Part shown: positions 5,907 through 42,152 of the stretch, piece after piece
How the letters are laid out: every line of letters begins with the position of its first letter
How positions within the stretch are numbered: position 1 is the first letter of the stretch
Origin: Pseudomonadota bacterium
GTDB taxonomy: Bacteria; Pseudomonadota; Gammaproteobacteria; Burkholderiales; Rhodocyclaceae
DNA: 52,707 bases
Direction: 5' to 3'
Assembly: GCA_041179245.1 (NCBI GenBank)
Contig: JBEGTT010000155.1
Coordinates: 1 to 52,707 of the forward strand
Translations under genes and position numbers: made by a program
The notes under the pieces: model-generated
What the model was told of the DNA's origin: nothing
The model's database searches: none
What the model saw: the letters and a program-made list of their open reading frames with translations, nothing else

Positions 5907-8900
5907 ATGGCTCAGACAGCGCACAACCCATCAGTTAAAATCACCAGTCCTTTGAAAAGTTCAATTCCCACCATGACAGCACGCCTGCGTGAAATTCCTT
6001 ACAACTACACCTCCTTTTCTGACCGCGAAATCGTTATTCGTTTACTTGGAGAGGAAAACTGGGCGATTCTCGATGAATTACGCAGCGAACGCGTCACAGG
6101 CCGCTCTGCGCGAATGCTCTATGAAGTACTCGGGGATATTTGGGTTGTGCAGCGAAATCCTTATTTGGAAGATGATCTCTTAGCGAATGTGGATCGTAGA
6201 GTTGCCTTGGTCAATGCGCTGAAGCACCGTTTGTCAGAAGTCGAAAAGCGTCGGCATGCGACAGAAAATGAAGATGTATCGAGGAGCAGCAAAGTCGCGA
6301 GGTTGGTGCTTGCTGCACAGGAGGCATTGCAGCGCTTCGAGTTGAACTTTGAAATAACTACAAAACTCCGGCGCAAAGTTTCCAGAGAACTGAGCCGCCA
6401 CACACGCAAAGACAATATTGCTTTTGATGGGCTTGCACGGGTTTCTCATGTCACCGATGCCACCGATTGGCGAGTGGAGTATCCCTTTGTCGTTCTGTAT
6501 CCTGATACGGAAGAAGAAATAGCACCGCTGGTACGAGGGTGCATCAATGCGGGGCTAACGATTATTCCGCGTGGCGCTGGTACCGGATACACCGGTGGGG
6601 CCGTCCCGCTTACGCCATTTTCAGCGGTGATTAATACCGAAAAATTGATCGATATTGGTTCGGTTGAACAGACCATCTTGCCTGGTCATACCCAGCCTTA
6701 TGCCACCGTACGTACAAGTGTTGGGGTGGTTACTGACCGCGTTTCCGAAGCAGCCTCAGCGGCTGGCCTTGTCTTTGCCGTGGACCCCACTTCTGCCAGT
6801 GCTTCCTGTATTGGTGGAAATATTGCGATGAATGCGGGGGGCAAAAAAGCGGTGTTGTGGGGTACCGCACTGGACAATCTGGCTTGGTGGAAGATGGTCA
6901 CACCAGACGGTAACTGGTTGGAAACTGAACGACTTAACCATAACTTCGGAAAAATTCACGAGCAGGAACAAGTAGAGTTTCGGCTGAGACGTTTTAGCCC
7001 TGATGGCAAGAAGATGTTGGGTGAAGAAATTTTGTCTATGCCAGGTTCGGCTTGTCGGAAAGCTGGGCTCGGAAAAGATGTGACTGATAAGTTTTTAGGT
7101 GGTGTGCCAGGGGTTCAAAAAGAAGGTACTGATGGGATTATTGTCGCTGCTCGCTGGGTGCTGCATAAGATGCCCCCAGTTGCTCGAACCGTGTGTCTGG
7201 AATTTTTTGGACAGGTAAGAGAAGCCGTTCCAGCCATCGTTGAAATTACCGATTATTTTAAGCCGGGTGGTGCTGGGCACGCAGCAGGGGTTCAACTTGC
7301 TGGCCTTGAACATTTGGATGAGCGTTACGTTAAAGCCGTAGGTTATGCCACCAAAGCCAAGCGTCACGGTCGTCCCAAGATGGTGCTGATTGGCGACATT
7401 GTTGGTCACGATGAAGCTATTGTGATGGCTGCGGTATCGGAAGTTGTACGCATGACCAATGCCCGAGGTTCTGAAGGCTTTATTGCCGTGACCCCGGAAA
7501 CGCGCAAAAAATTCTGGCTTGACCGTTCGCGTACAGCAGCGATTTCCCGTCACACCAATGCGTTTAAGGTCAATGAAGACGTAGTCATTCCATTGCCTCG
7601 TATGGGTGAATATTGCGACGGCATCGAACGTATCAATATCGAGTTATCAATTCAGAACAAACTCGCACTTTGTGATGCGTTAAGCGAATTTTTCCAAGGC
7701 GATTTACCGGTGCGTGTTGGTGATACGGCATTGGAAAAAGACGTGCTGATTGGTGACCGTCGCGAGCAGGCTATTGAGCATGTCGCGCAGGTCCGCCAGC
7801 GCTGGCAGTGGTTGTTAGATAACCTTGATTCGCCACTGACAGCAGCGGAAAACCATTTTGCCGAATTAGGAGTTAAAGCGGCTGAACTCAGCAATCGGGC
7901 AGAAAATCCAAAGTTGTTTCATCGCCTGCAGGATTATTCGGTGCGTGTGTCGTGGAAAACCGAACTCAAAGAACCATTGGAAATCCTGTTTGACGGAGGC
8001 ATCTACCGTCCGATCAGTGAGCGCATGGAGTCTATCCAGAAGAAAGTGTTGCGGGGGCGTGTTTTTGTCGCTCTGCACATGCATGCGGGTGATGGCAACG
8101 TACATACCAATATTCCGGTTAATTCTGATAATTATGAAATGCTACAAACGGCGCATAAGGCTGTTGAACGCATCATGCATTTGGCGCGCGCTCTAGATGG
8201 TGTTATCTCTGGCGAGCATGGGATCGGTATTACTAAGCTGGAATTTCTAACCGAAGATGAAATTGCCCCCTTCCGTGCCTACAAACAAAAAATTGACCCG
8301 GATGGCCATTTCAACAAGGGTAAATTAATGCCCGGTGGCGATATGGCTAATGCCTACACCCCGTCATTTAGCCTGTTGGGCACCGAGTCTCTGATTATGG
8401 AGCAGTCCGAAATTGGAAAAATTTCGGAAATGGTTAAAAACTGTCTGCGTTGCGGCAAGTGCAAACCAGTGTGTTCAACGCATGTGCCGCGAGCCAATTT
8501 GCTTTACAGCCCGCGCAACAAAATTTTAAGTGTTGGCCTGCTGACTGAAGCCTTTTTGTACGAGGAGCAGACCCGGCGTGGCATTTCCTTGCAGCATTTT
8601 GATGAATTTAATGATGTGGCTGACCATTGCACGGTCTGCCATCGTTGCGAAAAACCTTGCCCCGTCGACATCGACTTTGGTGATGTCACGGTAGCCATGC
8701 GTAACCTGTTACGTAAGCAGGGCAAAAAACGCTTTAGCCCCGGCACGGCTGCGTCAATGGCCTTTTTGTCACTGAAAGATCCATCAACGATCAAGATGAT
8801 GCGTTTAGTGATGATGGATTTCGGATTTAAGGCACAACGCTTGGCGCATAAAGTTGCGAAGTCCATTGGCTTGTTTAGCGACATGCGAAATAACCCCCCG

Positions 8901-9848
8901 GCTTCACTGGGAAAACCTTCTGTCAAAACGCAGTTGATTCATTTTATGAATCGCCCTATGCCTGGTAATTTGCCAAAACGAACCTCTCGCGCCTTGTTGG
9001 ATATTGAAGATGACAAGGTGATCCCAGTGATCCGTAATCCACAGAAAACGACGGAAGATTCCGATGCTGTTTTCTATTTCCCGGGTTGTGGTTCTGAGCG
9101 GCTATTTTCTCAAGTTGGGCTAGCGACTCAAGCGATGCTTTATGAAGTCGGTGCAACGACGGTGTTACCGCCGGGGTACTTATGTTGCGGATATCCGCAA
9201 ACCTCTTCGGGCGATGAAGATAAAGGCCAAAAAATCACCACGGATAATCGCGTGTTGTTCCACCGAGTGGCCAATACCCTGAATTATCTCGATATCAAGA
9301 CGGTGATCGTTTCATGTGGAACTTGCATGGATCAGTTACAGAAATATCAGTTTGAGAAGATTTTCCCGGGTTGCCGTTTGCTGGATATTCACGAATATCT
9401 AATGGAGAAGGGAGTCGCTTTGAAAGGCGTCGAAGGGACGCGTTATATGTATCACGACCCATGCCATTCACCGATGAAGGCTTATGCCCCGCTGCAAGTT
9501 ACTAAGGCGCTGATGGGCCAAGACGTGCCGCTTTCAGACCGGTGTTGCGGGGATGCGGGTTCGTTTGCCTATGCCCGACCTGATATCGCGACACAGGTTA
9601 AATTCCGCAAGCAGGAAGAAATCGAAAAAGGGGCAGAGAAACTCCGCACTGACGGTTTTGCAGGGAAGGTCAAAATTTTGACTTCTTGTCCCGCTTGTTT
9701 GCAGGGGCTATCTCGTTACGATGACGATGCTAATACCAAGGCGGATTACATTGTGGTCGAAATGGCCAAACACTTACTTGGCGAAAGCTGGATGCCGGAT
9801 TACGTCCAAAAAGCAAACCATGGTGGTATTGAACGGATATTGCTGTGA
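5907..9848 (+). CDS. DUF3683-type N-domain fused to an FAD-linked oxidase (GlcD-like) and an Fe-S/CCG oxidoreductase (GlcF/GlpC-like)
   Basis: 1313 aa. N-terminal [27 protein letters not shown]-binding [14 protein letters not shown], two CxxCxxCxxxC motifs ([22 protein letters not shown]) and two CCG motifs (CCGYP, CCGDAG). The start could instead be the internal Met at 5973. Confidence 0.85.
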
Positions 9849-27183: not shown

Positions 27184-27233
27184 TGGCTATATTTGGTAGA
27201 TAATTGCTTGATGTAATTATCGTGAGCAATAAA

Positions 27234-27695
27234 ATGGAACTTGATCGATTTGACCAGCAAATTCTCGCTATTTTGCAAACCGATGGGCGGATCAGTAATC
27301 AGGATTTGGCGGATCGGATTGGGCTATCGCCATCACCTTGTTTACGCCGGGTGCGAATGCTGGAAGAAAACGGTTTGATTACCGGCTATCGGGCTATGCT
27401 GGATGCTAAAAAATTGGGCCTGAGCTTGATGGCGCTGATTGGTATTTCGATGGATCAACACACGCCGGAACGATTTGCCAATCTCGAAATGGCCATTGGT
27501 GATATTCCCGAAGTACTGGAATGTTTGCTGATTACCGGGCAACAGTCGGATTACCAACTCAAGGTGGTGATTAAGGATATGGATGCGTATCAGGATCTGT
27601 TGCTGAACAAAATTACTCGTATCCAAGGGGTTACCGGGGTCCACACCAGTTTTGTACTGCGGCGGGTTGTTGATCGAACGGTCTTGCCGACCTAG
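27234..27695 (+). CDS. Lrp/AsnC-family transcriptional regulator
   Basis: Trimmed to ATG 27234 (MELDRFDQQILAILQTDGRISNQDLADRIGLSPSPCLRRVRMLEENGLI). HTH plus an RAM/ACT-like C-domain. Confidence 0.9.
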   Translation: MELDRFDQQILAILQTDGRISNQDLADRIGLSPSPCLRRVRMLEENGLITGYRAMLDAKKLGLSLMALIGISMDQHTPERFANLEMAIGDIPEVLECLLITGQQSDYQLKVVIKDMDAYQDLLLNKITRIQGVTGVHTSFVLRRVVDRTVLPT

Positions 27696-27768
27696 AATGG
27701 ACTTCTCTCGCCAGCCAGCCGCGTTTTGCCAGCCAGCTAGACTTTCCCACTGTATCTAGGAGAAACAC

Positions 27769-28254
27769 ATGAAAGGCGACAAAAAAATTATCGACATCCT
27801 CAACAGCTTGCTAACGGGCGAGTTGACGGCGGTTGACCAGTATCTGATTCACGGTGAGATGTATGCAGACTTTGGTTTGCCTCAATTGGCAGAAAAAAGT
27901 TTGCATGAGTCCGATCACGAGCGCCAACACGCCCGCGCCCTGATTCAGCGGATTCTGTTCCTAGAAGGCAAACCTAATCTGGCCAAGCGCGACAAGTTGG
28001 ACGTTGGGGAAAATGTTCCAGAAATGCTAAAGGCGGATCTAGCAGTTGAATATCACGTCGTCACAGAACTCAAAAAAGCCATTGCTGCGGCTGAAAAAGC
28101 TCAGGATTACGTGACCCGTGACATGCTGGCGGTTCAACTCGAAGATACCGAGATGGATCACGCTTACTTCCTCGAAAAACAGATTCGCCTGATTGAACTC
28201 GTCGGCTTGCAGAATTACCAGCAAAGCCAGATGAAGTCCGGTAATCCAGCCTAA
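27769..28254 (+). CDS. bfr: Bacterioferritin subunit, ferroxidase-competent, lacking the heme-ligand Met
   Basis: 161 aa, [12 protein letters not shown]... E18, Y25, E51, H54 and E94 are present, as is the distal E/H pair (TEMDH, offset by one residue). Position 52 is Arg rather than Met. Confidence 0.9.
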
Positions 28255-28264
28255 GGGGAATGTG

Positions 28265-28732
28265 ATGCAAGGCGATAAGAAAGTCATTGATGCCCTGAAC
28301 AAGGTGCTTAAAAACGAGCTGACGGCGATTAACCAGTATTTCCTGCATGCCCGTATGTTCCGCCATTGGGGGCTGGAAAAGCTAAAGGACTATCAGTACA
28401 AACAATCCATTCGCGTGATGAAAGAAGCGGATGAAGTGATCGAGCGGGTGCTGTTCTTGGAAGGACTGCCCAACCTACAAAACCTCGGCAAGCTGCTGAT
28501 TGGGGAAGAGGTTGTTGAATGCTTGTCTGGTGATCTGACTTACGAACGCGAGATTCAACGTCCGCTGCTGATTGAATCCATCGCCTTGTGCGAAGAACGG
28601 CAGGATTACATTAGCCGGGATTTGCTGGAAGAGTTACTGGAACACTGTGAAGAAGCGATTGACTGGCTGGAAACACAGCAGAGTTTGATCAAGGAAGTCA
28701 CGTTGCCAAATTATCTACAGTCCCACATCTAA
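28265..28732 (+). CDS. bfr: Bacterioferritin subunit, heme-binding type with a degenerate ferroxidase centre
   Basis: 155 aa from ATG 28265 ([12 protein letters not shown]...). Met52 retained. E51 is Val, H54 is Glu, and the E127/H130 equivalents are Cys/Ala. Confidence 0.9.
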
Positions 28733-28733
28733 T

Positions 28734-28772
28734 AAAAAAACCGCAGCTCGGGAAACTGGCTGCGGTTTTTTG
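28734..28772. terminator. Bidirectional terminator between convergent bfr and dps
   Basis: AAAAAAA-CCGCAGC...GCTGCGG-TTTTTT hairpin flanked by an A-run and a T-run. Confidence 0.7.
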
Positions 28773-28788
28773 TTGGCGGTGAGCTCAG

Positions 28789-29283
28789 TTACTCTTCTAA
28801 CAAGCTACGCAGCATCCAAGCAGTTTTTTCGTGTACTTCCAAACGTTGGGTAATCAGGTCAGCCGTCGGCTGGTCATTAGCCGCTTCCAGCACTGGGAAG
28901 AGTTTGCGAGCGGTACGGGCAGTGGCTTCTTGAGCGGCCACCAAATGGCGAACCATTTCATCAGCTTTGGGTACACCTTCGACCTCCTTGATCGAGGCTA
29001 GTTTTACAAACTCCTTGTAGGTACCCGGTGCTGGGTGACCCAGTGCGCGAATACGTTCAGCAATCATGTCCAGCGCGTTCCATTGTTCCGTGTATTGCCC
29101 CATAAACATCAGATGCAGGCTGTTGAACTGCGGCCCTTTGACGTTCCAATGAAAGTTGTGGGTCATCAAATACAAGGTGTAACTATCCGCCAGCAGAGAC
29201 GATAAACCTTTAACGATTTTGCCGCGTTCCGTGGCGTTGATGCCAATGTCGATGGACGGGGTCTGGTCTTTCTTGGTAGCCAT
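28789..29283 (-). CDS. dps: Dps (DNA-protecting mini-ferritin)
   Basis: Trimmed to ATG 29283 (MATKKDQ...), which is preceded by AGGAGAAAATT. Dps motifs HNFHWNVKG and DMIAERIRALG. Confidence 0.92.
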   Translation of the reverse strand: MATKKDQTPSIDIGINATERGKIVKGLSSLLADSYTLYLMTHNFHWNVKGPQFNSLHLMFMGQYTEQWNALDMIAERIRALGHPAPGTYKEFVKLASIKEVEGVPKADEMVRHLVAAQEATARTARKLFPVLEAANDQPTADLITQRLEVHEKTAWMLRSLLEE

Positions 29284-29358
29284 AATTTTCTCCTGAGTGA
29301 GTTCGAGCAAGTTGAGTTTAGGCCTGCATTTGGTTGTTGACAATAGTTCTCAATAGCG

Positions 29359-31610: not shown

Positions 31611-31787
31611 ATGAAAACTTATCTGTGTATTGCCTGCGGGTTTATCTACGACGAAGCCGTTGGCGACCCCGAACACGGCATTTTGCCGGGAACCCGTTGG
31701 GAAGATGTCCCGGAAGATTGGAACTGCCCTGAATGCGGGAGTTCCAAGGGGGACTTTGAAATGGTGGTGATTGAGGGCGGAGAGTGA
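31611..31787 (+). CDS. Rubredoxin
   Basis: 58 aa from ATG 31611, preceded by [17 protein letters not shown]...WNCPECG provides two CxxC pairs. Confidence 0.92.
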
Positions 31788-31800
31788 AAATTGGCTTTTA

Positions 31801-33366
31801 CTACCACTTCCCAAGCGGCCCCAAAAACGCTTCAGCATTTTTGTAACCCACGACGCGCAAACTGCGAATTTCTTGCCCGTTGGCGTCAAAGAAGATAATT
31901 CCAGGCGGGCCAAACAGGTCGAAGCGCTTGAGCAGGGCGGCATCGTCGGTGCTGTTGGCGGTGACATCGGCTTGTAGCAGAACGACCTCTTTTAACGCGG
32001 CTTGCACCTTGGGGTCGGTGAAGGTGAATTTCTCCATTTCTTTGCAACTGACGCACCAGTCGGCGTAAAAATCGAGCATCACGGGGCGTTTAGCGGTGCT
32101 CAGTTTCTGTTCCAGTTCGGCGACGGTATGTACGCGCTCGAAAGGTAGGGCAGATTGGTGTGAAGCGCTGGAGTTACCGGTAATCGAAGGTAAAACGGGA
32201 TACACCAGCCAAGCGGCGGTCGCCAGCAATAACACACCAAAGAAGCGCTTGACCCATTCCATCCACGGGCCAGCTTTGGGCAATAAAGTACCAGCGGACA
32301 AACCGACTAGCAACAAAGGAACACCCATGCCAAGGGCCATCACGAACAAGGCTGTGCCACCAAACACAGCATCACCCGTTTGTCCGATGTAAAGCAGCGC
32401 ACCGGCCAGTGGCGCTGCGACGCAAGGGCCGACGATTAACGCCGACAGCGCACCCATGCCGAATAACCCCAGCCATTGACCACCGGGCAAGCGATTGGCG
32501 GATTCGGACAATTTACCTTGCAAACTCGCAGGCAGTTGTAGTTCGTAAAAGCCGAACATCGAAAAGGACAGCGCGACGAAAATCAAGGCAAAGCTGCCTA
32601 GAACCCAAATATTTTGTAGGGCGGCTGAGAGCAATGTTCCCGTTAAACCGGCAGCAACCCCAGCGATGGCGTAAGTGGTTGCCATACCTAAAACGTAGGC
32701 CAGCGACAGGCCAAAGTTATGCCAGCGACCAGTGTGCCCACGCCCCACGATGATGCCGGACAAGATCGGAATCATGGGCAGAATGCAAGGTGTCAGGGAC
32801 AAACCTAACCCCGCAACGAAGAAAAACAGCAAAGCGACGCTTAGACTACTGCCCGACAGAATGGCAGCGATGGCTGAAGTTTCATCAACTTGCGGTGGAA
32901 GAGATGGCGAGGGTTCTATGGTTTGTACCGCAACCTTGGCAGGCAATTTAACGGTGAGGATTTGGGTTTGTGGTGGATAACAAAGCCCAGCATCTGCACA
33001 GCCTTGGGCGGTTATAGAAAGCTTGAGCGTTTCATCATCGGTATTGCCCTGTAATGGAATCGTCGCTTTGAGTTCTTTGTAGAACACCGCAACGGCACCA
33101 AAATTTTCATCCTGTTTTTGCTTGCCAGCCGGCATTTCAGGTTTGCTCAAGGTGACGCTGTTGGGTGGATCAATCAACTTGATTTTCAGTTTGTCACGGT
33201 AGAGGTAATACCCTTTGGCAATCTCGTAGCGAACTTCCAGCGTTTGGCGGTCAATGGCCCGCAAGCTCGGCTTGAAGGCAACAGCCGGATCAAGGAATTC
33301 TTGGGCACTAGACAGTCCAGGAATGAGTTGCAGAACCAGAATGAAAACTTTAATGAAACGAAGCAT
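31801..33366 (-). CDS. dsbD: Thiol:disulfide interchange protein DsbD
   Basis: 521 aa. Signal peptide, alpha-domain Cys pair (GCADAGLCYPP), membrane Cys residues (LTPCILP, IVGPCVAAP) and a C-terminal thioredoxin CxxC (WCVSC). Confidence 0.93.
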   Translation of the reverse strand: MLRFIKVFILVLQLIPGLSSAQEFLDPAVAFKPSLRAIDRQTLEVRYEIAKGYYLYRDKLKIKLIDPPNSVTLSKPEMPAGKQKQDENFGAVAVFYKELKATIPLQGNTDDETLKLSITAQGCADAGLCYPPQTQILTVKLPAKVAVQTIEPSPSLPPQVDETSAIAAILSGSSLSVALLFFFVAGLGLSLTPCILPMIPILSGIIVGRGHTGRWHNFGLSLAYVLGMATTYAIAGVAAGLTGTLLSAALQNIWVLGSFALIFVALSFSMFGFYELQLPASLQGKLSESANRLPGGQWLGLFGMGALSALIVGPCVAAPLAGALLYIGQTGDAVFGGTALFVMALGMGVPLLLVGLSAGTLLPKAGPWMEWVKRFFGVLLLATAAWLVYPVLPSITGNSSASHQSALPFERVHTVAELEQKLSTAKRPVMLDFYADWCVSCKEMEKFTFTDPKVQAALKEVVLLQADVTANSTDDAALLKRFDLFGPPGIIFFDANGQEIRSLRVVGYKNAEAFLGPLGKW

Positions 33367-33378
33367 GGGTGTTATCCA

Positions 33379-34431
33379 TCAAGCAATGACAAAGTCGGTG
33401 TAAACCAAGGTGGGGTGCGATGTGGCGCCTATCAGCACAATTTTTATCGCTGCACCAGCACCTGAACCATCCGCATCATAGGAGAGATACCCGGTGGTTT
33501 TATCGTAAATCAAGTAGTGAGTTGCCGTTTGAGTAGCGGTTCCTTTGATGAGAAATTCGCTACTTTCTACCGTGCTTCCTATTTTGCCAATCAAAGAAGC
33601 CTTCAATGAAATCTTGTCGGTTCCGCTGACAAAGTCAGTGATGGTGTCAAAATCCGTGTTGGAAAATGCAACATCAAACCGGAAAATATCACTGCCGGCT
33701 CCGCCTGTCAGGACGTCTTTACCGGTACCCCCGATTAGTGTGTCGTTTCCATCCCCACTTATCAGCGTGTCCGCACCAGCCCCGCCATCCAGTGCGTTAT
33801 TTCCAGAATTGCCGGTGATTACGTTTGCCAATACGTTGCCTGTACCATTGATGTTGGTGCTGTCGGTGAGCGTCAGATTCTCAACGTTTCCAGACAAGGT
33901 AAACGAAATACTTGATTTCACTAAATCGGAGCCTTGATTGGCTAGTTCTATAACCACATCGCCCGTGTTATCCACAATGTAAGTGTCGTTGCCGAGACCG
34001 CCTACCATGCTATCGGCACCTGTTCCGCCATCGAGCGTATCGTTGCCCGCCAACCCCGTCAGGGTGTCATTGCCGGCATATCCATTGAGCGAATCGGCAA
34101 CAGCGGTTCCGGTAACCGTATCGTTGCCACTCCCCGGTGTAGTGGGTGTTGTCGTTGTAGTAGCTTCCCACTTGGTTATGCCGTTGTAGGTGACTTTCTC
34201 AAAACCGGTTAGGTAAACTTTGGCGCTTGCTGTGGCAATGATGACAATTCCATTTGAAGACGAAACGTTAAAAGTGCTTAGGTAGCCGGGATCAACAATT
34301 TGAAATACATCGGTACCGCTGCTGCCGTTGACGGATTTGTTTCGGAAGGAATTCCAGGCCATCTGATTAGAGATGTAGAAAGTATCGTTCCCTGTGGTAC
34401 CTGTCGCAACGTAAGAGGTGTAAGTCATCAT
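33379..34431 (-). CDS. RTX-type calcium-binding repeat protein
   Basis: Trimmed to MMTYTS... (AGGAA 8 nt upstream). Two blocks of GGxGxD nonapeptide repeats (GYAGNDTLTGLAGNDTLDGGTGADSMVGGLGNDTY and GGAGADTLISGDGNDTLIGGTGKDVLTGGAGSDIF). Thr-rich linker, hydrophobic C-terminus ...YTDFVIA. Confidence 0.88.
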   Translation of the reverse strand: MMTYTSYVATGTTGNDTFYISNQMAWNSFRNKSVNGSSGTDVFQIVDPGYLSTFNVSSSNGIVIIATASAKVYLTGFEKVTYNGITKWEATTTTTPTTPGSGNDTVTGTAVADSLNGYAGNDTLTGLAGNDTLDGGTGADSMVGGLGNDTYIVDNTGDVVIELANQGSDLVKSSISFTLSGNVENLTLTDSTNINGTGNVLANVITGNSGNNALDGGAGADTLISGDGNDTLIGGTGKDVLTGGAGSDIFRFDVAFSNTDFDTITDFVSGTDKISLKASLIGKIGSTVESSEFLIKGTATQTATHYLIYDKTTGYLSYDADGSGAGAAIKIVLIGATSHPTLVYTDFVIA

Positions 34432-34441
34432 GATTTCGTTC

Positions 34442-35329
34442 CTATTGTGTGGTGACTGAGCCATCAGGGCTCACGATTAAGTATCGAATGGGGTAAAGCT
34501 TGAAAAAAGGTTGCGGGGTTTCCATCAACATGCCGATGGTTGAACAACTGCCAGCATGCAAGGCTGTTTCAGCAATTACCGAGATAGATCGGTGAAAACT
34601 GACGGGAATCCCGGTTTTAGGATGAATGATGTGGCTATAACGCTGTCCATTGATTTCGAAGAAACGCTCGTAATCTCCACTGGTTGCCAAACCACCGCCG
34701 TGCATGGGGATGCTGGCAATCAATCCTGTTGCTTGATTGGGGTCTCGGATCCCAATTTGCCAAGGGCTGTTATCAGGTTGTGGCCCCAATACGCGAACGT
34801 CCCCACCAAAATTAACAAAGCCATACTGGAACCCTTCGTTAAGCAGTATTTCTGCGGCTCGATCAACGGCATATTCTTTGCCGAATCCACCAAAATCGAT
34901 TTCCATGCTGATCTTGGGTAAATAAATGTGGGTATCTGATGCTTCAACCGCTGACCAACTGACGAGCGAGCGCAATGACACCAATTCAGCCTCGGTTGGA
35001 ACCAGACGTTTTGTGAAATCCCAAGCACGACTGAGTTTTCCGGAGGTAATGTCAAACAAGCCGTCACTATCCTGATAGAGCGCATTGGCGTAACTCAGCA
35101 ACCAAGCGGTTTCTGGATCAATCAAGGTTCGGTGCCCCGTTCCAGCCGCTTGGTTAATCTGGCTAATGAGGCTGTCTGGGCGATAGCGAGAGTATTTGTG
35201 CTCGATCCGACGAACTTCGGTAGCCGCTAATTCAATCGCTTGTTTGGCTTTTGTTTCGTCCTCGGCTACTAGCGTAACTTCGCAGTGGCTGGCCATTGCC
35301 GGGAATTGAGCGGTGACAATATCCATCAT
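34442..35329 (-). CDS. apbE: ApbE-family FAD:protein FMN transferase
   Basis: 295 aa. ApbE motifs FGGDVRVLG, ATSGDYERFF and HIIHPKTG. The N-terminus MMDIVTAQFPAMASHCEV has no signal peptide or lipobox, and a stop lies just upstream, so there is no room for an extension. Confidence 0.9.
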   Translation of the reverse strand: MMDIVTAQFPAMASHCEVTLVAEDETKAKQAIELAATEVRRIEHKYSRYRPDSLISQINQAAGTGHRTLIDPETAWLLSYANALYQDSDGLFDITSGKLSRAWDFTKRLVPTEAELVSLRSLVSWSAVEASDTHIYLPKISMEIDFGGFGKEYAVDRAAEILLNEGFQYGFVNFGGDVRVLGPQPDNSPWQIGIRDPNQATGLIASIPMHGGGLATSGDYERFFEINGQRYSHIIHPKTGIPVSFHRSISVIAETALHAGSCSTIGMLMETPQPFFKLYPIRYLIVSPDGSVTTQ

Positions 35330-35332
35330 GGA

Positions 35333-36472
35333 TCAGAAGAAATGGGTTAGGCCAAATTGCCAGATACGGGCGCGGAAGGTGTCGATACCCGGACTGCCAT
35401 TCCCCGATAGTGCCAAGGCACTCCGTTGTTCGTAATCTTCATACTTCACATCGACGAGCCAGTCTTTGCCAATTTTTCGGGCTACTTTTAACCCCATCGT
35501 GCGGCCACCAAAGGCAGAGAGGCGCTGGTCTTGCGAGAAATAGGGTTGATTGCTCAGGTTGAATGTAGGGAGCGGGGCATTTTGGGGGTCTGCGTAGAAA
35601 AAAGCCGCTGTCTGAGTGTAGTAACGAAGGGCTGGCGTAATAATCCAATCATTCGCTGTTGGAATAACCCATTCCCCGCCGACGGTGTGTGAGTGAACGT
35701 CAAACGAGTCTTCGTAATAGCGATAGCTTAGGCGTAGGGTGGTGTTGCTTTCCACAAAATGATGGTTCCAGCGTCCTAGAATCGCGGTGCCTGCTTTGTG
35801 CCGGGGCCTGCCAAATTCCAGTTCCCCTTGTTTATAAGGGTCCGAATAAAACCCATGTCCATCGCTTTTGGTCAGATTGACTTGGACAATGTCTATCGGC
35901 GTCAAAATTTGGGTGACACCCACAATCAAATCTGTCACTGCCTTCTTCTCATTGACGACACCGTAATAAGGCACATCAATACGGTCATCAGTTTGGCCAA
36001 CGCCAAGATTGAAGGTGGTGTTCTTGTCTTCCGTGCTGATCGTTCCCGAAATGGACTGTGTGTTCGATAAATAGTCACTTTCAGACGAATAGGATTTGCT
36101 GATCGTTAACGTACCTTGTGAGAAGTAACGGGTTAGTCTGAGGTCGCGACCTGTCCGCTCATCCTTCATGTGGGCCGCAGAGGATTTTTCGCTGTGGTAA
36201 AGCGGGGTAGCCCCCGAAATCGTGTCGACGATCACGCCACCTTCAACCACCCAGTTACCTGCAAATGGCACCATCAGCAGTGTTGAGGGGGCTTTGACCG
36301 CAATCCGTTTTAGGCCGGGTTGGCTGTCCTGATAATCCAGATACTTGAAGCTGATTTGCGCGCGTTCAGGAATGGTATCCGCCAGCACAACCCCTGCGGG
36401 GAGCGCGGTGACACATCCGCATCCTGCCAACATGGCGGCATGGAGTGAGTTTTTAGTTGCAGCCACAGCCAC
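35333..36472 (-). CDS. DUF3570-type predicted outer-membrane beta-barrel protein
   Basis: 379 aa. Alternating beta-strand pattern rich in Y/W/G and an aromatic C-terminus ...WQFGLTHFF, typical of OMPs. Signal-like N-terminus containing LAGCGC. Contains DTISGAT (residues 83-89). The family assignment is from memory of the DUF3570 architecture. The GTG start is uncertain; ATG 36433 is an alternative. Confidence 0.7.
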   Translation of the reverse strand: MAVAATKNSLHAAMLAGCGCVTALPAGVVLADTIPERAQISFKYLDYQDSQPGLKRIAVKAPSTLLMVPFAGNWVVEGGVIVDTISGATPLYHSEKSSAAHMKDERTGRDLRLTRYFSQGTLTISKSYSSESDYLSNTQSISGTISTEDKNTTFNLGVGQTDDRIDVPYYGVVNEKKAVTDLIVGVTQILTPIDIVQVNLTKSDGHGFYSDPYKQGELEFGRPRHKAGTAILGRWNHHFVESNTTLRLSYRYYEDSFDVHSHTVGGEWVIPTANDWIITPALRYYTQTAAFFYADPQNAPLPTFNLSNQPYFSQDQRLSAFGGRTMGLKVARKIGKDWLVDVKYEDYEQRSALALSGNGSPGIDTFRARIWQFGLTHFF

Positions 36473-36671
36473 CTCCTCCTACGCCTGATCCTCCAGAAGA
36501 TGCTTCTTTACTGAAGTAAATATGTTCGGTGAAAGCAGCGTCCAGCTTGTCTGTTTCGAAGGTCATTTCAGGTTTGGACAAATAGCCTTTTTCCCACGGT
36601 TGAACAGGTTCAATCACGGCACAGCCAGACAAGCTAGCTGCGAATGCCATACTGAGGAGAAAAAGTTTCAT
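36453..36671 (-). CDS. DUF4266-type small lipoprotein with a Gly-rich CGC tail
   Basis: 72 aa. Signal plus lipobox MKLFLLSMAFAASLSGC. C-terminus SSGGSGVGGGGCGCN. 1-nt gap from the tlpA-like stop and a 20-nt overlap with the next gene. Confidence 0.7.
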   Translation of the reverse strand: MKLFLLSMAFAASLSGCAVIEPVQPWEKGYLSKPEMTFETDKLDAAFTEHIYFSKEASSGGSGVGGGGCGCN

Positions 36672-36672
36672 C

Positions 36673-37182
36673 TTATTGCCCTGTCTTCAGATGTTGCTCG
36701 ATCAATTTCTCAAGCTCTTCTTGGGCTGTGTGATTGAAGCCAATGTGTTGGTACAAAACTTTGCCGTCCCTACCGATCAGAAAACTGGTGGGCATTCCCC
36801 TCACACCATAGGCTTTAGGGGTAATTCCTTTGGGATCGAACGCGATCTGAAATTCGACAGGTAGCTGAGCCAGAAATTTTTCTGCATCTGATTTTTTGCT
36901 ATCTACATTGATTGCTAACACGTTGAAACCACGGTCTTTATATTGCTGCTCAATGGCATTCATCCAAGGGAAAGATTGGCGGCAAGGGCCACACCAAGAT
37001 GCCCAGAAGTCCAAATAAACCAGTTTCCCTTTGTAATCGCTAAGGCTAATTTTTTCAGTCGTGCCATCGAGTTGAAGCGAAGGGGCACTATCACCTTGCT
37101 CAAGTGCCAATGACGGCCCAGATGCCATAAATGTGATGACAAAAATCAGCGAACAAAAAATCGTACGGCAACTAAACATCAT
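36673..37182 (-). CDS. TlpA/ResA-like periplasmic thiol:disulfide oxidoreductase
   Basis: Trimmed to MMFSCRTIFCSLIFVITFMASGPSLA (signal or anchor). Thioredoxin-fold active site WASWCGPC. Confidence 0.88.
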   Translation of the reverse strand: MMFSCRTIFCSLIFVITFMASGPSLALEQGDSAPSLQLDGTTEKISLSDYKGKLVYLDFWASWCGPCRQSFPWMNAIEQQYKDRGFNVLAINVDSKKSDAEKFLAQLPVEFQIAFDPKGITPKAYGVRGMPTSFLIGRDGKVLYQHIGFNHTAQEELEKLIEQHLKTGQ

Positions 37183-37403
37183 GAATTCAACTTTGTTGGT
37201 GATGATTGAGGATTGTACGGGTTGATTGTTAACTGAACCTGAAGCCTGTGAATGTTTGCGGCAAATCTGAATCAAGTGGTACTAAAATTGGCTTTGTCGT
37301 AGAACTCATCAGTCCCGTAAAGGGGTTCTGTTTCATCTCTAACCCGCGATGCATTAGGAATGTGAAAAGTGGAAACAAACGTCAGCATTTCATTTTTAAT
37401 CTT

Positions 37404-40805: not shown

Positions 40806-42152
40806 ATGAACGCCATTGACATCTTTCCCTGGGATGACAATTTTAATACCGGGATAGATGAAATCGACGAGCAGCACAAACGCTTAGTGTTGCTGCTGAA
40901 CAAACTCGCCAGCCACGTTGCTTTTCGTTCTGACACCATTGAGCTAAACAGCATCTTTGATGAGCTGATCGACTACACGGTTTATCACTTCGAAACTGAA
41001 GAGAAAATCTGGGATCGTTACTTTATTGATGATAAAGCGGCGGCTCAGCATCAGGCGACTCACGCCAGTTTTGTCGACATGGTTCAGTTACTCAAAGATC
41101 AGCAGGACAAAAAACCGCTACGACAAATTGCCGAAGAAGCCTTGGATTATCTGGTTCGTTGGTTGGCATCGCACATTCTTGAAACGGATCGTTTCATGGC
41201 CTACGCTGTTGCCGCCATCCAAGCTGGAAAATCATTGGATGAGGCAAAAGCCGAGGCTACCGAGCGAATGACGGGTGCCACCCGGTCAATGATCGACATC
41301 ATTTTGTCGATCTATTCAACCCTTTCGCATAACACCCTGCAACTGATGCGTAAGCTAGTAGAGCAGGAGGAAGCTGAAGCGGCGCTACGTCAAAGTAAGG
41401 AGGAGTTACTCAAGGCAAAGGAGCGTGCCGAAGCAGCCAACCGTGCCAAAAGCCAGTTCCTAGCCACCATCAGCCATGAAATCCGAACCCCGCTGAATGG
41501 CGTATTAGGCATGGCGCAACTGTTGTTATTACCCGGTTTGTCGCAGGAAGAGCAGAACGAATTCGTTCATAACATTCTGAGTTCGGGAAACACCCTGCTG
41601 GCCCTGCTTAATGATGTGCTCGACGTTTCAAAAGTAGAGGCTGGGAAAATGGATCTAGTGCTCGCTAGTGTTTCTCCCGCTCAACTCCTTGATGATGTTT
41701 CCGCCCTGATGGGCGCGAATGCCCACACCAAAGGATTGTGCCTGTCCGTTGTTTGGAACGGCCCAACGCTACGCCACTACAGCGCTGATCCCGTCCGAAT
41801 TCGACAAATGCTGACCAATCTTGTCAGCAACGCCATTAAATTTACCGAACATGGGTCAGTTGCTGTTGAAGCGTCGGAAACAAACGAGACCACTATCGAT
41901 CACCAAGTATTTTCGACCCTTAGGTTTGCGGTAACTGATACGGGTATTGGTATCCCGGCCGACAAACTTGAATATCTTTTCCAGCCATTTACCCAATTGG
42001 ACAGTTCTGATACCCGGCAATTTGGCGGAACAGGGCTGGGGCTTTCCATTGTTCGTTCGCTAGCTGAGCGCATGAATGGGCTGACCGGTGTGAAGAGTCA
42101 ACCCGGCGTTGGGTCTACGTTCTGGTTTGAAATCCCGCTTGAGGTTCTCTAA
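40806..42152 (+). CDS. Soluble hemerythrin-domain sensor histidine kinase
   Basis: 448 aa with no TM segment. N-terminal bacteriohemerythrin ligand pattern (DEQHK, YHFETEE, HQATH, SHILETD), coiled coil, H-box [10 protein letters not shown], and N/G1/F/G2 boxes ([24 protein letters not shown]). No receiver or HPt domain. Confidence 0.88.

What the first reader, a model, noticed from the sequence alone, without database searches (positions are those of the whole stretch)
31801..37182. Six-gene envelope redox operon with no assigned function: TlpA-like, DUF4266 lipoprotein, DUF3570 barrel, ApbE, RTX protein, DsbD
All six genes are on the minus strand with junctions of 1 nt, a 20-nt overlap, 3 nt, 10 nt and 12 nt, so they almost certainly form one transcript from the 221-bp spacer shared with xth. 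The parts suggest an electron path from cytoplasm to outer membrane. DsbD imports reducing power, a TlpA-type thioredoxin (WCGPC) distributes it, and a small lipoprotein and the barrel N-terminus each carry a CGC motif. An FMN transferase sits next to a barrel bearing a flavinylation motif. From memory, the TlpA/DUF4266/DUF3570/ApbE core recurs in other phyla and has no experimentally defined role. The RTX gene and dsbD fused into the same operon look like a lineage-specific extension. This is my best candidate for an undescribed system in the window.
Basis: partly seen in the sequence, partly recalled or inferred. Interest (0 to 1): 0.8.

Follow-up and report, generated by a model that had tools for sequence, protein, structure and literature searches.

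The report
Known flavin–thiol envelope operon, new partner
The six genes form a real operon of a type already described in 2021, a DsbD/thioredoxin/DUF4266/DUF3570/ApbE "flavinylation" system whose cellular role is still unknown; its extra RTX gene belongs to a previously unnoticed partner family that often carries the same flavin-attachment motif.

Summary
All six minus-strand genes, their junctions and their domains are confirmed. The system is not undescribed. Méheust et al. 2021 (eLife, PMC8238504) defined ApbE + DUF3570 + thioredoxin-like + DUF4266 clusters. They found 227 with DsbD and 316 without, and showed that ApbE flavinylates DUF3570. The physiological role is still unknown.

In 80 genome loci the order is conserved: DUF4266 upstream in 79/79, TlpA in 71/74, ApbE downstream in 63/74 and DsbD downstream in 40/62. 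DsbD is therefore not lineage-specific. The barrel's "CGC" lies in its signal peptide and is not conserved.

Points the 2021 paper does not mention:
- DUF3570 models as a 16-strand outer-membrane barrel with the flavin site in a predicted extracellular loop.
- The operon's ApbE never has a signal peptide.
- The RTX gene belongs to a recurrent operon-specific partner family. Its N-terminal domain has no Pfam or NCBIfam model and usually carries D-x-x-S-G-A-S. The window copy is degenerate (ATAS).
- A cytochrome-c JDVT-CTERM surface protein replaces this partner in 47/80 loci, and the two never co-occur.

Best model: DsbD → TlpA → DUF4266 CGC → FMN on the barrel → surface partner.

The parts
36673..37182 (-). 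TlpA/ResA-like periplasmic thioredoxin with a signal peptide and a WCGPC active site. It is the first gene of the operon. JGI calls a longer form starting at TTG 37275.
   Evidence: Pfam Redoxin 1.2e-27 and AhpC-TSA 7.5e-25. NCBIfam best hits are ResA and TlpA, both below the equivalog cut-offs. Present within 1 kb upstream of DUF3570 in 71/74 loci.
36453..36671 (-). DUF4266 small lipoprotein (lipobox LSGC, Ala at +2), with a Gly-rich tail ending in GGGGCGCN.
   Evidence: Pfam DUF4266 9.8e-24. The tail is translated. GGGGCGCN is found in 101/101 homologues, and all have a lipobox Cys with A or S at +2.
35333..36472 (-). DUF3570 protein: Sec signal peptide followed by a 16-strand outer-membrane beta-barrel ending in Phe. 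It is a known ApbE substrate family.
   Evidence: Pfam DUF3570 7.1e-51. AlphaFold2 model with pLDDT 87.7, pTM 0.84 and 16 strands. Foldseek top hits are the PelB and BcsC barrels, FadL and OmpG. Flavinylation of a family member was shown in PMC8238504.
36203..36226 (-). Flavinylation motif DTISGATP (acceptor Thr76 in the 366-aa numbering), at the end of strand 3 entering the S3-S4 loop.
   Evidence: Translation. D, G, A and P are invariant in 23 homologues and D..SGA[ST]P.[YWF]H is conserved in 82. The second motif seen in 51 relatives is lost here (KSSAAH).
34442..35329 (-). ApbE FAD:protein FMN transferase without any signal peptide or lipobox.
   Evidence: Pfam ApbE 9.5e-72. A stop codon lies directly upstream of the ATG, and homology to solved ApbE structures begins at residue 9. 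All ~70 operon ApbEs start 5-10 residues before the conserved F.AM.S.CE.
33379..34431 (-). RTX accessory protein (350 aa, no Cys, no signal peptide): N-terminal ~90-aa domain, RTX nonapeptide repeats, and a serralysin-type C-terminal region ending in DFVIA.
   Evidence: Pfam HemolysinCabind 5.4e-25. NCBIfam serralysin/ZapA C-terminal region. An equivalent gene follows ApbE in the closest relatives L118, L120 and L122 and in L006, L008, L013, L027, L031, L043 and L044.
34156..34431 (-). N-terminal accessory domain of the RTX protein, with Ser69 (codon 34225-34227) at the position of the acceptor Ser of the family's D-x-x-S-G-A-S motif. The local sequence here is IIATASAK.
   Evidence: Alignments A2 and A7. 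hhalign against the canonical SGAS domain profile gives probability 98.2% and E 3.5e-14, with S69 aligned to the acceptor Ser. AlphaFold2 model has pLDDT 82.9, with S69 in a hairpin turn. Translation.
31801..33366 (-). DsbD thiol:disulfide reductase with alpha, transmembrane and gamma domains. All three Cys pairs are present (CADAGLC; TPC and GPC; CVSC).
   Evidence: Pfam DsbD_N 1.2e-30, DsbD_TM 1.1e-91 and Thioredoxin_7. NCBIfam DsbD 1.3e-172, above its cut-off. Cysteines were read from the translation.
37183..37403 (.). 221-bp divergent spacer between tlpA and xth, the presumed promoter region of the operon.
   Evidence: Sequence. One sigma-70-like match on the minus strand runs from 37252 to 37225 (9/12), but the number of promoter-like matches in the region is not above the shuffled expectation.

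Best explanation
This is a member of the flavinylation-associated 'DsbD system' of Méheust et al. 2021, a self-contained envelope electron-relay operon. Steps are marked as shown or inferred.

1. DsbD takes electrons from cytoplasmic thioredoxin across the inner membrane (established for the DsbD family; inferred here).
2. Its dedicated periplasmic partner is the operon's TlpA-like thioredoxin with WCGPC (inferred).
3. TlpA keeps the invariant C-terminal CGC of the outer-membrane lipoprotein DUF4266 in redox cycling (inferred).
4. DUF3570 is a 16-strand outer-membrane barrel (modelled here). ApbE covalently attaches FMN to its D-x-[VI]-S-G-A-[ST] motif (shown experimentally for the Chlorobium homologue; motif present here). 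The flavin sits in loop L2, on the predicted extracellular or lumen side.
5. The Gly-rich CGC tail of DUF4266 passes electrons to that flavin, and the flavin passes them to a cell-surface or extracellular partner (inferred).
6. The partner is interchangeable. In some lineages it is a protein with no signal peptide and a C-terminal secretion-type end, whose N-terminal domain carries the same flavin-attachment motif. In others it is a cytochrome-c protein with a JDVT-CTERM surface anchor.

The window's RTX protein is a diverged copy of the first kind. It keeps the Ala-Ser of the acceptor site but has lost the Asp, Ser and Gly of the motif, so its own flavinylation is doubtful. The final acceptor, and hence the physiological purpose (iron or another extracellular oxidant), is unknown.
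For: - Domain identities.
- Published description of the same cluster, and experimental flavinylation of DUF3570 by its cognate ApbE at [S/T]GA[S/T] motifs: PMC8238504.
- Gene order conserved in 80 genome loci: DUF4266 in 79/79, TlpA in 71/74, ApbE in 63/74 and DsbD downstream in 40/62.
- The flanking genes differ between loci, so the module is self-contained.
- Barrel model with pLDDT 87.7 and 16 strands. All long loops are odd-to-even connections, and the motif lies at the S3/L2 junction. The nearest structures are outer-membrane barrels.
- DUF4266: the lipobox and GGGGCGCN are invariant in 101/101 homologues.
- Accessory family: N-domain alignment with an invariant Ser. There are 341 cluster representatives, and 79 of the 135 with the domain at the N-terminus have strict D..SGAS.
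- In a context-blind metagenome scan seeded on the N-domain alone, nearly every locus with enough upstream flank had the gene inside the DUF4266-DUF3570-ApbE operon. L094 is the exception, with no operon gene upstream of the N-domain gene and a DUF4266 gene downstream; in L107 the gene lies divergent from tlpA beside the operon. Two further contexts agree.
- The extended motif D-[ST]-[VI]-S-G-A-S-x-x-[YLF]-H is shared by the barrel and the N-domain.
- The window's N-domain is homologous to the canonical one (hhalign 98.2%).
- JDVT-CTERM proteins sit upstream of tlpA in 47/80 loci. The one read in full (L033) has a CxxCH haem site, and a CxxCH within the first 120 residues was found in 22 of the 47. 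They never co-occur with the N-domain type.
Against: - No step of the thiol-to-flavin relay has been measured in any organism. The direction of electron flow and the final acceptor are unknown.
- The operon's ApbE has no signal peptide in any locus, although DUF3570 and the lipoprotein-type N-domain proteins are Sec substrates. Either flavinylation precedes export or ApbE reaches the periplasm by an unknown route. The model does not explain this.
- The extracellular placement of the flavin rests on the general loop-length rule for outer-membrane barrels applied to a predicted model, and the L2 loop itself has low confidence (residues 80-86 have pLDDT below 50).
- The window's RTX N-domain lacks D(-6), S(-3), G(-2) and H(+4) of the motif. 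An HMM built only from canonical members does not detect it.
- No type I secretion genes are present in the window or next to the operon in L008, L013 or L044.
- Co-transcription was not tested, and the promoter/terminator scan was uninformative.
Confidence: 0.6

Rival explanations
1. The parts are the same but the purpose differs. The module is a metal-handling device at the outer membrane, either an assimilatory Fe(III) reductase or a Cu/Fe chaperone relay. In this reading the CGC tail of DUF4266 binds or reduces metal, and the barrel is the uptake channel rather than a conduit to a protein partner.
For: - Méheust et al. report 25 DUF3570 clusters with a VIT1 ferrous-iron transporter.
- The window has three ferritin-like genes, a rubredoxin and a hemerythrin kinase within 10 kb.
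- TlpA-type proteins are known reductants of copper-site assembly factors (general knowledge).
- The barrel resembles substrate channels such as PelB, BcsC and FadL.
Against: - The iron-related neighbours are not conserved. The flanks of L008, L013, L044, L083, L118 and L120 are unrelated housekeeping genes.
- No metal transporter lies in the operon.
- The conserved extra genes are redox or surface proteins (N-domain type, cytochrome c type), not transporters.
Confidence: 0.2
2. In this window the RTX protein is only a secreted calcium-binding adhesin or surface-layer-like protein that travels with the operon. It has no redox role and is not flavinylated. It may dock on the barrel or act as a scaffold.
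For: - The motif is degenerate in the window clade: ATASA in the window, STSSA, STAST and GGASA in its relatives.
- The protein has no Cys and no cofactor motif.
- The fold of the N-domain resembles RTX beta-roll or cap regions only weakly (E 0.04) and does not resemble FMN-binding domains.
- A canonical-only HMM fails to detect it.
Against: - The gene is retained directly after apbE in all four members of the window clade and in seven or more other loci.
- The Ala-Ser of the acceptor position is invariant across the RTX subtype.
- Homology to the canonical SGAS domain is significant by profile-profile comparison.
- The published motif treats the G and the [S/T] as the less strict positions (general knowledge of the ApbE consensus Dxx(s/t)gA(T/S)).
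Confidence: 0.3
3. The flavin-bearing barrel acts as a sulfhydryl-oxidase-like sink, analogous to Mia40 (CPC) - Erv1 (flavin) - cytochrome c. Its real job is then to oxidise or isomerise thiols of envelope proteins, or to detoxify oxidants, rather than to export electrons for an extracellular reaction.
For: The chain CXC peptide - flavin - cytochrome c, seen in the JDVT subtype, parallels the mitochondrial disulfide relay (general knowledge).
Against: - DsbD and TlpA are reductive-pathway components.
- No candidate thiol substrates are encoded in the operon.
- The accessory proteins of the N-domain type have few or no cysteines.
Confidence: 0.08
4. The six genes are neighbours by chance or are transcribed separately, so there is no system.
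For: No transcript data exist, and the promoter and terminator scans are at background level.
Against: The junctions range from a 20-nt overlap to a 12-nt gap. The same order is found in about 110 independent loci with different flanks.
Confidence: 0.02

Closest known systems
Flavinylation-associated 'DsbD system' (ApbE + DUF3570 + thioredoxin-like + DUF4266 ± DsbD), Méheust et al., eLife 2021 (PMC8238504)
   Same: All five components are present in the same compact cluster. DUF3570 carries the [S/T]GA[S/T] motif and DUF4266 has the C-terminal CXC. The proposed relay runs from DsbD through a thioredoxin-like protein to the flavinylated protein. The physiological function is unknown.
   Different: - The window has an extra RTX gene between apbE and dsbD.
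- The barrel keeps only one of the two motifs found in the Chlorobium reference and in 51 of 83 relatives.
- The paper does not mention the outer-membrane barrel fold, the missing signal peptide of ApbE, the N-domain accessory family or the cytochrome-c JDVT partner (term searches).
DsbD - CcmG/TlpA/ResA reductive pathways (cytochrome c maturation, CuA/ScoI reduction)
   Same: A DsbD with all three Cys pairs is paired with a secreted CXXC thioredoxin of the Redoxin/AhpC-TSA type.
   Different: No ccm or cox assembly genes are present. The TlpA-like protein scores below the ResA, TlpA and DsbE equivalog cut-offs. Its presumed client is a CXC lipoprotein rather than an apocytochrome.
Porin-cytochrome conduits (MtrCAB / PioAB / MtoAB)
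   Same: Resemblance in how it works only: an outer-membrane barrel, a redox cofactor that spans or plugs it, and a surface redox protein as the terminal partner.
   Different: There is no homology. The cofactor is covalent FMN on the barrel's own loop, fed by thiols rather than haems. The barrel has 16 strands, not 26. This comparison is from general knowledge and was not tested here.
Flavin-based extracellular electron transfer of Listeria (FmnB/ApbE, PplA, EetAB, Ndh2)
   Same: An ApbE-type transferase flavinylates an extracytosolic or surface protein that hands electrons outward.
   Different: That system is Gram-positive, quinone-fed, and uses an FMN_bind (PF04205) domain. Here the source is thiol/DsbD, the substrates are DUF3570 and possibly a new N-domain, and neither hits PF04205.
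Serralysin-type RTX type I secretion substrates
   Same: The RTX protein has no signal peptide, has nonapeptide repeats, has a C-terminal region homologous to serralysin/ZapA C-termini, and ends in an acidic-then-hydrophobic tail (DFVIA). The relative L118 hits Peptidase_M10_C.
   Different: It has no protease or lipase domain. In its place is a ~90-aa N-domain specific to this operon. No ABC/MFP/TolC genes lie nearby.
JDVT-CTERM proteins next to DUF4266/DUF3570/TlpA genes (Haft, bioRxiv 2023, 10.1101/2023.06.07.544157)
   Same: That paper independently noted that a surface-sorted protein is encoded beside this core and probably works with it.
   Different: The window has no JDVT-CTERM protein or MrtJ protease. 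Here the RTX/N-domain protein takes that slot. Haft called the association rare, but it is present in 47 of my 80 loci.

Membership tests
DsbD-type flavinylation system (Méheust 2021) | An ApbE gene in the cluster | tested here: met
   PF02424 9.5e-72, 242 bits against a cut-off of 25.6
DsbD-type flavinylation system (Méheust 2021) | A DUF3570 protein carrying [S/T]GA[S/T] flavinylation motif(s) | tested here: met
   PF12094 7.1e-51. One motif, DTISGATP. The second motif of the reference protein is absent.
DsbD-type flavinylation system (Méheust 2021) | A small secreted DUF4266 protein with a C-terminal CXC | tested here: met
   PF14086 9.8e-24, lipobox LSGC, ends in GGGGCGCN
DsbD-type flavinylation system (Méheust 2021) | A thioredoxin-like protein and DsbD (PF02683) co-located | tested here: met
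   Redoxin/Thioredoxin hits with WCGPC. DsbD_TM 1.1e-91 and NCBIfam DsbD 575 bits.
DsbD-type flavinylation system (Méheust 2021) | DUF3570 is actually flavinylated by the cognate ApbE | not testable with these tools
   Shown only for the Chlorobium luteolum pair in E. coli
Outer-membrane beta-barrel protein | Signal peptide, an even number of antiparallel strands closing a barrel, a C-terminal aromatic residue, and long loops on one side only | tested here: met
   AlphaFold2 model with 16 strands, pTM 0.84. C-terminal ...THFF. Foldseek top 50 hits are all outer-membrane barrels. This is a model, not a measured localisation.
Extracytosolic ApbE (periplasmic or lipoprotein flavin transferase) | An N-terminal signal peptide or lipobox | tested here: not met
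   A stop codon lies immediately upstream of the ATG, and the catalytic domain starts at residue ~9. The same holds in all ~70 operon ApbEs.
RTX / type I secretion substrate | Ca-binding nonapeptide repeats, no N-terminal signal peptide, and a C-terminal secretion region | tested here: met
   HemolysinCabind with 4 stretches. Serralysin/ZapA C-terminal homology. The protein starts MMTYTSYV and ends DFVIA.
RTX / type I secretion substrate | A cognate ABC transporter, membrane-fusion protein and TolC encoded nearby | tested here: not met
   None found among the window's ORFs or in the flanks of L008, L013 and L044. They could be encoded elsewhere in the genome.
Operon-specific N-terminal accessory domain (this work; no Pfam or NCBIfam model) | Homology to the ~90-aa domain, with the gene located inside the DUF4266-DUF3570-ApbE operon | tested here: met
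   hhalign probability 98.2%, E 3.5e-14. The gene directly follows apbE. A direct HMM built from canonical members alone does not find it.
Operon-specific N-terminal accessory domain (this work; no Pfam or NCBIfam model) | The canonical ApbE acceptor motif D-x-x-[ST]-G-A-[ST] | tested here: not met
   The window has V-I-I-A-T-A-S. Only the A-S is retained. 79 of 135 family representatives have the strict motif.
FMN_bind domain (PF04205) flavinylated proteins (NqrC/RnfG/PplA type) | A match to PF04205 or to its fold | tested here: not met
   No PF04205 hit for any of the six proteins or for accessory family members. Foldseek of the N-domain gives only weak RTX-like hits.
DsbD | Three domains, each with its redox Cys pair | tested here: met
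   CADAGLC (alpha domain), LTPC and VGPC (transmembrane domain) and WCVSC (gamma domain), read from the translation. Domain hits.

The most novel reading that the evidence does not exclude
The operon encodes a thiol-fed, flavin-based conduit across the outer membrane. An ApbE that stays in the cytoplasm flavinylates its clients before export. One client is the DUF3570 barrel, modified on what becomes an extracellular loop. The other is a third, undescribed class of ApbE substrate: the ~90-aa N-terminal D-x-V-S-G-A-S-x-x-Y/L-H domain of proteins that lack a signal peptide and carry RTX or Ig-like regions, and that leave the cell by a C-terminal signal. The exported flavoprotein, or in other lineages a JDVT-anchored cytochrome c, docks on the barrel and takes electrons that DsbD, TlpA and the DUF4266 CGC tail deliver from cytoplasmic thioredoxin. 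This would be a flavin analogue of MtrCAB and the first flavinylated type I secretion substrate.
Probability: 0.25. Interest if true: 0.75.

Novelty: new variant of a known kind. Interest (0 to 1): 0.5.

Why it matters
The core system is widespread, with hundreds of clusters in Proteobacteria and Chlorobi, and nobody knows what it does. Three points sharpen the question into concrete experiments:
- The flavin is predicted to sit on the outer face of an outer-membrane barrel.
- The dedicated ApbE appears to be cytoplasmic.
- The operon recruits one of two interchangeable surface redox partners, a flavin-motif protein or a cytochrome c.

If the N-domain is a real ApbE substrate, it would add a third substrate class beyond the two found in 2021. 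It would also link flavinylation to signal-peptide-independent secretion. For the window itself, the practical outcome is a correct annotation: a known system type with an RTX-type accessory gene whose motif is degenerate.

Tried and rejected
- An exact look-up of the 379-aa GTG-start DUF3570 found nothing. The 366-aa ATG form is the one on record.
- A search of the Méheust supplements for PF12094, PF14086 and ABB24423 gave no text hits, so the per-cluster signal-peptide calls of that study could not be checked.
- The word-indexed homology search with N-domain alignments returned only 8 and 19 short fragments. The exhaustive HMM search was needed instead.
- Alignment A4 was too diverse for the metagenome pattern scan, so the closer set A5 was used.
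- An HMM built from canonical SGAS domains alone does not detect the window's RTX protein. Membership rests on the profile-profile comparison.
- Foldseek of the N-domain gave no significant match (best E 0.04, RTX lipase and CyaA block V). I therefore reject a relationship to FMN-binding domains.
- I looked for type I secretion genes in the whole window and in three relatives' flanks and found none.
- The promoter/terminator scan was at background level. No Fur-box-like sequence is obvious in the spacer (by eye only).
- I rejected the barrel's N-terminal CGC as a redox motif and LAGC as a lipobox. Neither Cys is conserved, while the A-x-A cleavage site is.
- I rejected the idea that dsbD is a lineage-specific addition.
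- I rejected the RTX protein as a thiol-redox client because it has no cysteine.

Full report
OBSERVATION

ORF listing shows six minus-strand genes between 31801 and 37182:
- TlpA-like, 36673..37182
- DUF4266, 36453..36671
- DUF3570, 35333..36472 (GTG start)
- ApbE, 34442..35329
- RTX protein, 33379..34431
- DsbD, 31801..33366

The junctions are 1 nt, a 20-nt overlap, 3 nt, 10 nt and 12 nt. A 221-bp spacer separates the operon from the divergent xth gene. Pfam confirms every domain call well above the gathering thresholds, and NCBIfam confirms DsbD as a family member. The promoter/terminator scan adds nothing, because its counts are at the shuffled background.

The window is a chromosomal stretch next to dnaA-dnaN-gyrB. 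It comes from an uncultured betaproteobacterium; its MreB falls in a 90%-identity cluster with Accumulibacter sequences. An identical copy of the operon lies on a JGI metagenome contig.

THE SYSTEM IS ALREADY DESCRIBED

A full-text search for DUF3570 or DUF4266 matched four papers (three listed, after merging copies of one work). Méheust et al. 2021 (eLife, PMC8238504) report the following:
- A further 316 clusters have the same core without DsbD.
- DUF4266 has a conserved C-terminal CXC "that may undergo redox cycling".
- Chlorobium luteolum DUF3570 is flavinylated by its cognate ApbE at two [S/T]GA[S/T] motifs.

Later literature in the held library adds nothing on function. Haft 2023 notes that JDVT-CTERM proteins sometimes sit beside these genes.

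CONSERVATION

I aligned 23 DUF3570 homologues and fetched 80 genome loci with that alignment. They are mostly Burkholderiales and other Betaproteobacteria, plus one Chlorobiaceae MAG. tblastn with the six window proteins, counting only loci where the position could be seen, gives:
- DUF4266 directly upstream of DUF3570: 79/79
- TlpA within 1 kb upstream: 71/74
- ApbE directly downstream: 63/74
- DsbD downstream on the same strand: 40/62 (45/62 anywhere in the locus)

dsbD is thus a common member, not a lineage-specific extension. The flanking genes differ from locus to locus, so the module's borders are tlpA and dsbD.

The CGC near the barrel's N-terminus lies inside the signal peptide and is missing even from the 85%-identical homologue. 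The Cys of the apparent lipobox LAGC is not conserved either, whereas the A-x-A cleavage site is.

THE BARREL

AlphaFold2 on the 23-sequence alignment gives a confident model: pLDDT 87.7, pTM 0.84, 16 strands. The best structural matches are outer-membrane barrels, namely PelB, BcsC, FadL and OmpG. All long connections (S3-S4, S9-S10, S13-S14, S15-S16) are odd-to-even, and all even-to-odd turns are 2-5 residues long. This is the usual pattern of extracellular loops and periplasmic turns.

The flavin acceptor Thr76 sits at the end of strand 3, entering loop L2. By this rule it lies on the extracellular or lumen-top side. That placement is an inference from a model, and L2 itself is modelled with low confidence. 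In 51 of 83 relatives a second SGA[ST] lies 11 residues further along the same loop. The window and its near relatives have lost it (KSSAAH).

THE LIPOPROTEIN

All 101 DUF4266 homologues in the fetched loci end in GGGGCGCN after a Gly/Ser-rich linker. All have a lipobox Cys followed by Ala or Ser, which by the +2 rule is an outer-membrane sorting signal. A flexible tail ending in a CXC is well suited to reach into a barrel. That step is inference.

APBE WITHOUT A SIGNAL PEPTIDE

In the window a stop codon lies directly before the ApbE ATG, and homology to solved ApbE structures starts at residue 9. In every one of about 70 operon ApbEs, including the Chlorobiaceae one, the reading frame offers only 5-10 residues before the conserved F.AM.S.CE, and no upstream hydrophobic segment. 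Yet DUF3570 is a Sec substrate. The 2021 paper does not discuss this. Either the clients are flavinylated in the cytoplasm before export, or ApbE is exported by an unknown route. I cannot decide between these.

THE RTX GENE BELONGS TO AN OPERON-SPECIFIC PARTNER FAMILY

An RTX-like gene follows apbE in L006, L008, L013, L027, L031, L043 and L044, and follows dsbD in L003. It also follows apbE in the window's closest relatives L118, L120 and L122. These proteins share an N-terminal domain of about 90 residues with an invariant Gly-x-Asp, Ser and Glu.

In L003, L006, L016, L025, L045 and L055 that Ser lies in D-[ST]-[VL]-S-G-A-S, a perfect ApbE acceptor motif. An exhaustive profile search of 1.84 billion representative proteins found 341 members at E ≤ 1e-3. 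Of the 135 with the domain at the N-terminus, 79 have the strict motif, and several others read D-x-x-S-[SA]-A-S. No Pfam or NCBIfam model covers the domain. The downstream parts are Big_5, Big_12, RTX or DUF4214.

A context-blind metagenome scan seeded only on the N-domain returned 31 loci. In nearly every one with enough upstream flank, the gene sits right after apbE (or after DUF3570) in the DUF4266-DUF3570-ApbE operon. L094 is the exception: nothing of the operon was detected upstream of the N-domain gene, and a DUF4266 gene lies about 1.7 kb downstream. In L107 the gene lies divergent from tlpA beside the operon. Two further contexts agree.

The proteins start M-[AP]-T-Y-T-G-T-x-G-N-D with no signal peptide, and they end in conserved C-terminal motifs. 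A few are short lipoproteins (P0125, P0160). The barrel and the N-domain share an extended motif, D-[ST/D]-[VI]-S-G-A-S-x-x-[YLF]-H, which suggests the same transferase recognises both.

The window's copy is divergent. A canonical-only HMM misses it. A profile-profile comparison gives 98.2% probability and E 3.5e-14, and aligns its Ala68-Ser69 with the acceptor Ala-Ser. The local sequence is V-I-I-A-T-A-S. The AlphaFold2 model (pLDDT 82.9) puts Ser69 in a hairpin turn. Foldseek finds only weak RTX-like neighbours and no FMN-binding fold. Whether this copy is flavinylated is therefore doubtful.

No type I secretion genes lie in the window or in the three relatives' flanks that I checked. Secretion is inferred from the missing signal peptide, the RTX repeats, the homology to the serralysin C-terminal region and the DFVIA end.

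AN ALTERNATIVE PARTNER

In 47 of the 80 genome loci a large protein homologous to the Duganella JDVT-CTERM protein lies directly upstream of tlpA. The Duganella hordei example has a signal peptide, an N-terminal CASCH cytochrome-c site, Ig-like repeats and a GGGGCS...DP...RRRR sorting tail, and it follows an MrtJ-like protease gene. A CxxCH within the first 120 residues was detected in 22 of the 47; this count is limited by uncertain ORF starts. The N-domain type (12 loci) and the JDVT type (47 loci) never co-occur. Two different surface or extracellular proteins, one with a flavin motif and one with a haem motif, therefore occupy the same functional slot. This supports the idea that the barrel hands electrons to a surface partner.

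VERDICT

The finding is a correct reading of a real operon, but the operon is a member of a system published in 2021 whose biochemical core (ApbE flavinylating DUF3570) is experimentally shown. The physiological role remains unknown.

Four things go beyond the 2021 paper as far as I could search it: the barrel topology of the flavin site, the universally signal-less ApbE, the N-domain accessory family as a candidate third ApbE substrate, and its mutual exclusivity with a cytochrome-c JDVT partner. All four are computational inferences. I rate the window's operon as a new variant of a known kind, of moderate interest.

Noticed in passing
window 36453-36479 (-); 101 homologues in L003-L117: The C-terminal octapeptide GGGGCGCN of DUF4266 is present in 101/101 homologues. 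The JDVT-CTERM sorting signature of the alternative partner proteins also begins GGGGC(S). This could point to a shared recognition or processing site.
   Followed up: partly
L122 346-1747; L120 5616-6260: The window's closest relatives have a cytochrome b561-like gene (Ni_hydr_CYTB) directly upstream of tlpA. In L122 a diheme cytochrome c (DHC) gene and a DUF1924 gene are there as well. The window has xth in that position instead.
   Followed up: no
L081 8165-18098 (Chlorobiaceae MAG): Four DUF3570 paralogues, two TlpA/DUF4266 pairs and one ApbE lie within 10 kb. Some of the paralogues carry two or three SGA[ST] motifs.
   Followed up: no
window 27204-29343: An AsnC/Lrp regulator gene is followed by three ferritin-like genes (27769-28254 +, 28262-28732 +, 28789-29343 -), a few kb from the operon. 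Iron-related neighbours are not conserved in other loci.
   Followed up: partly
window 31611-31787 (+): A rubredoxin gene is convergent with dsbD. Only 13 nt separate the two stop codons, and no terminator-like hairpin was detected between them.
   Followed up: no
window 40806-42152 (+): A histidine kinase with an N-terminal hemerythrin domain lies downstream of topoisomerase III. It could be an O2, iron or redox sensor.
   Followed up: no
window 5907-9848 (+): A 1313-aa fusion protein (DUF3683 + FAD-linked oxidase + 4Fe-4S dicluster + CCG domain + DUF3400) lies next to dnaA.
   Followed up: no
L088, L090, L094, L097-L099, L103-L106, L108 (accessory gene 3' ends): Accessory proteins of the canonical N-domain type end in a conserved motif such as ...GL.GL..TGL.[FY][VI] or ...NGIDFIPFG. 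This may be an uncharacterised C-terminal secretion or docking signal.
   Followed up: no
L084 1603-1986 and 2991-4847: One operon carries two N-domain genes. A 127-aa lipoprotein version (DSVSGAS) lies between DUF3570 and apbE, and a 618-aa Big/RTX/DUF4214 version (DSISSAS) lies after apbE.
   Followed up: partly
L032, L038, L052, L058, L067, L074, L080: In seven Massilia, Pseudoduganella or Undibacterium-type loci, dsbD follows DUF3570 directly with no apbE between them. The transferase must be encoded elsewhere in those genomes.
   Followed up: no
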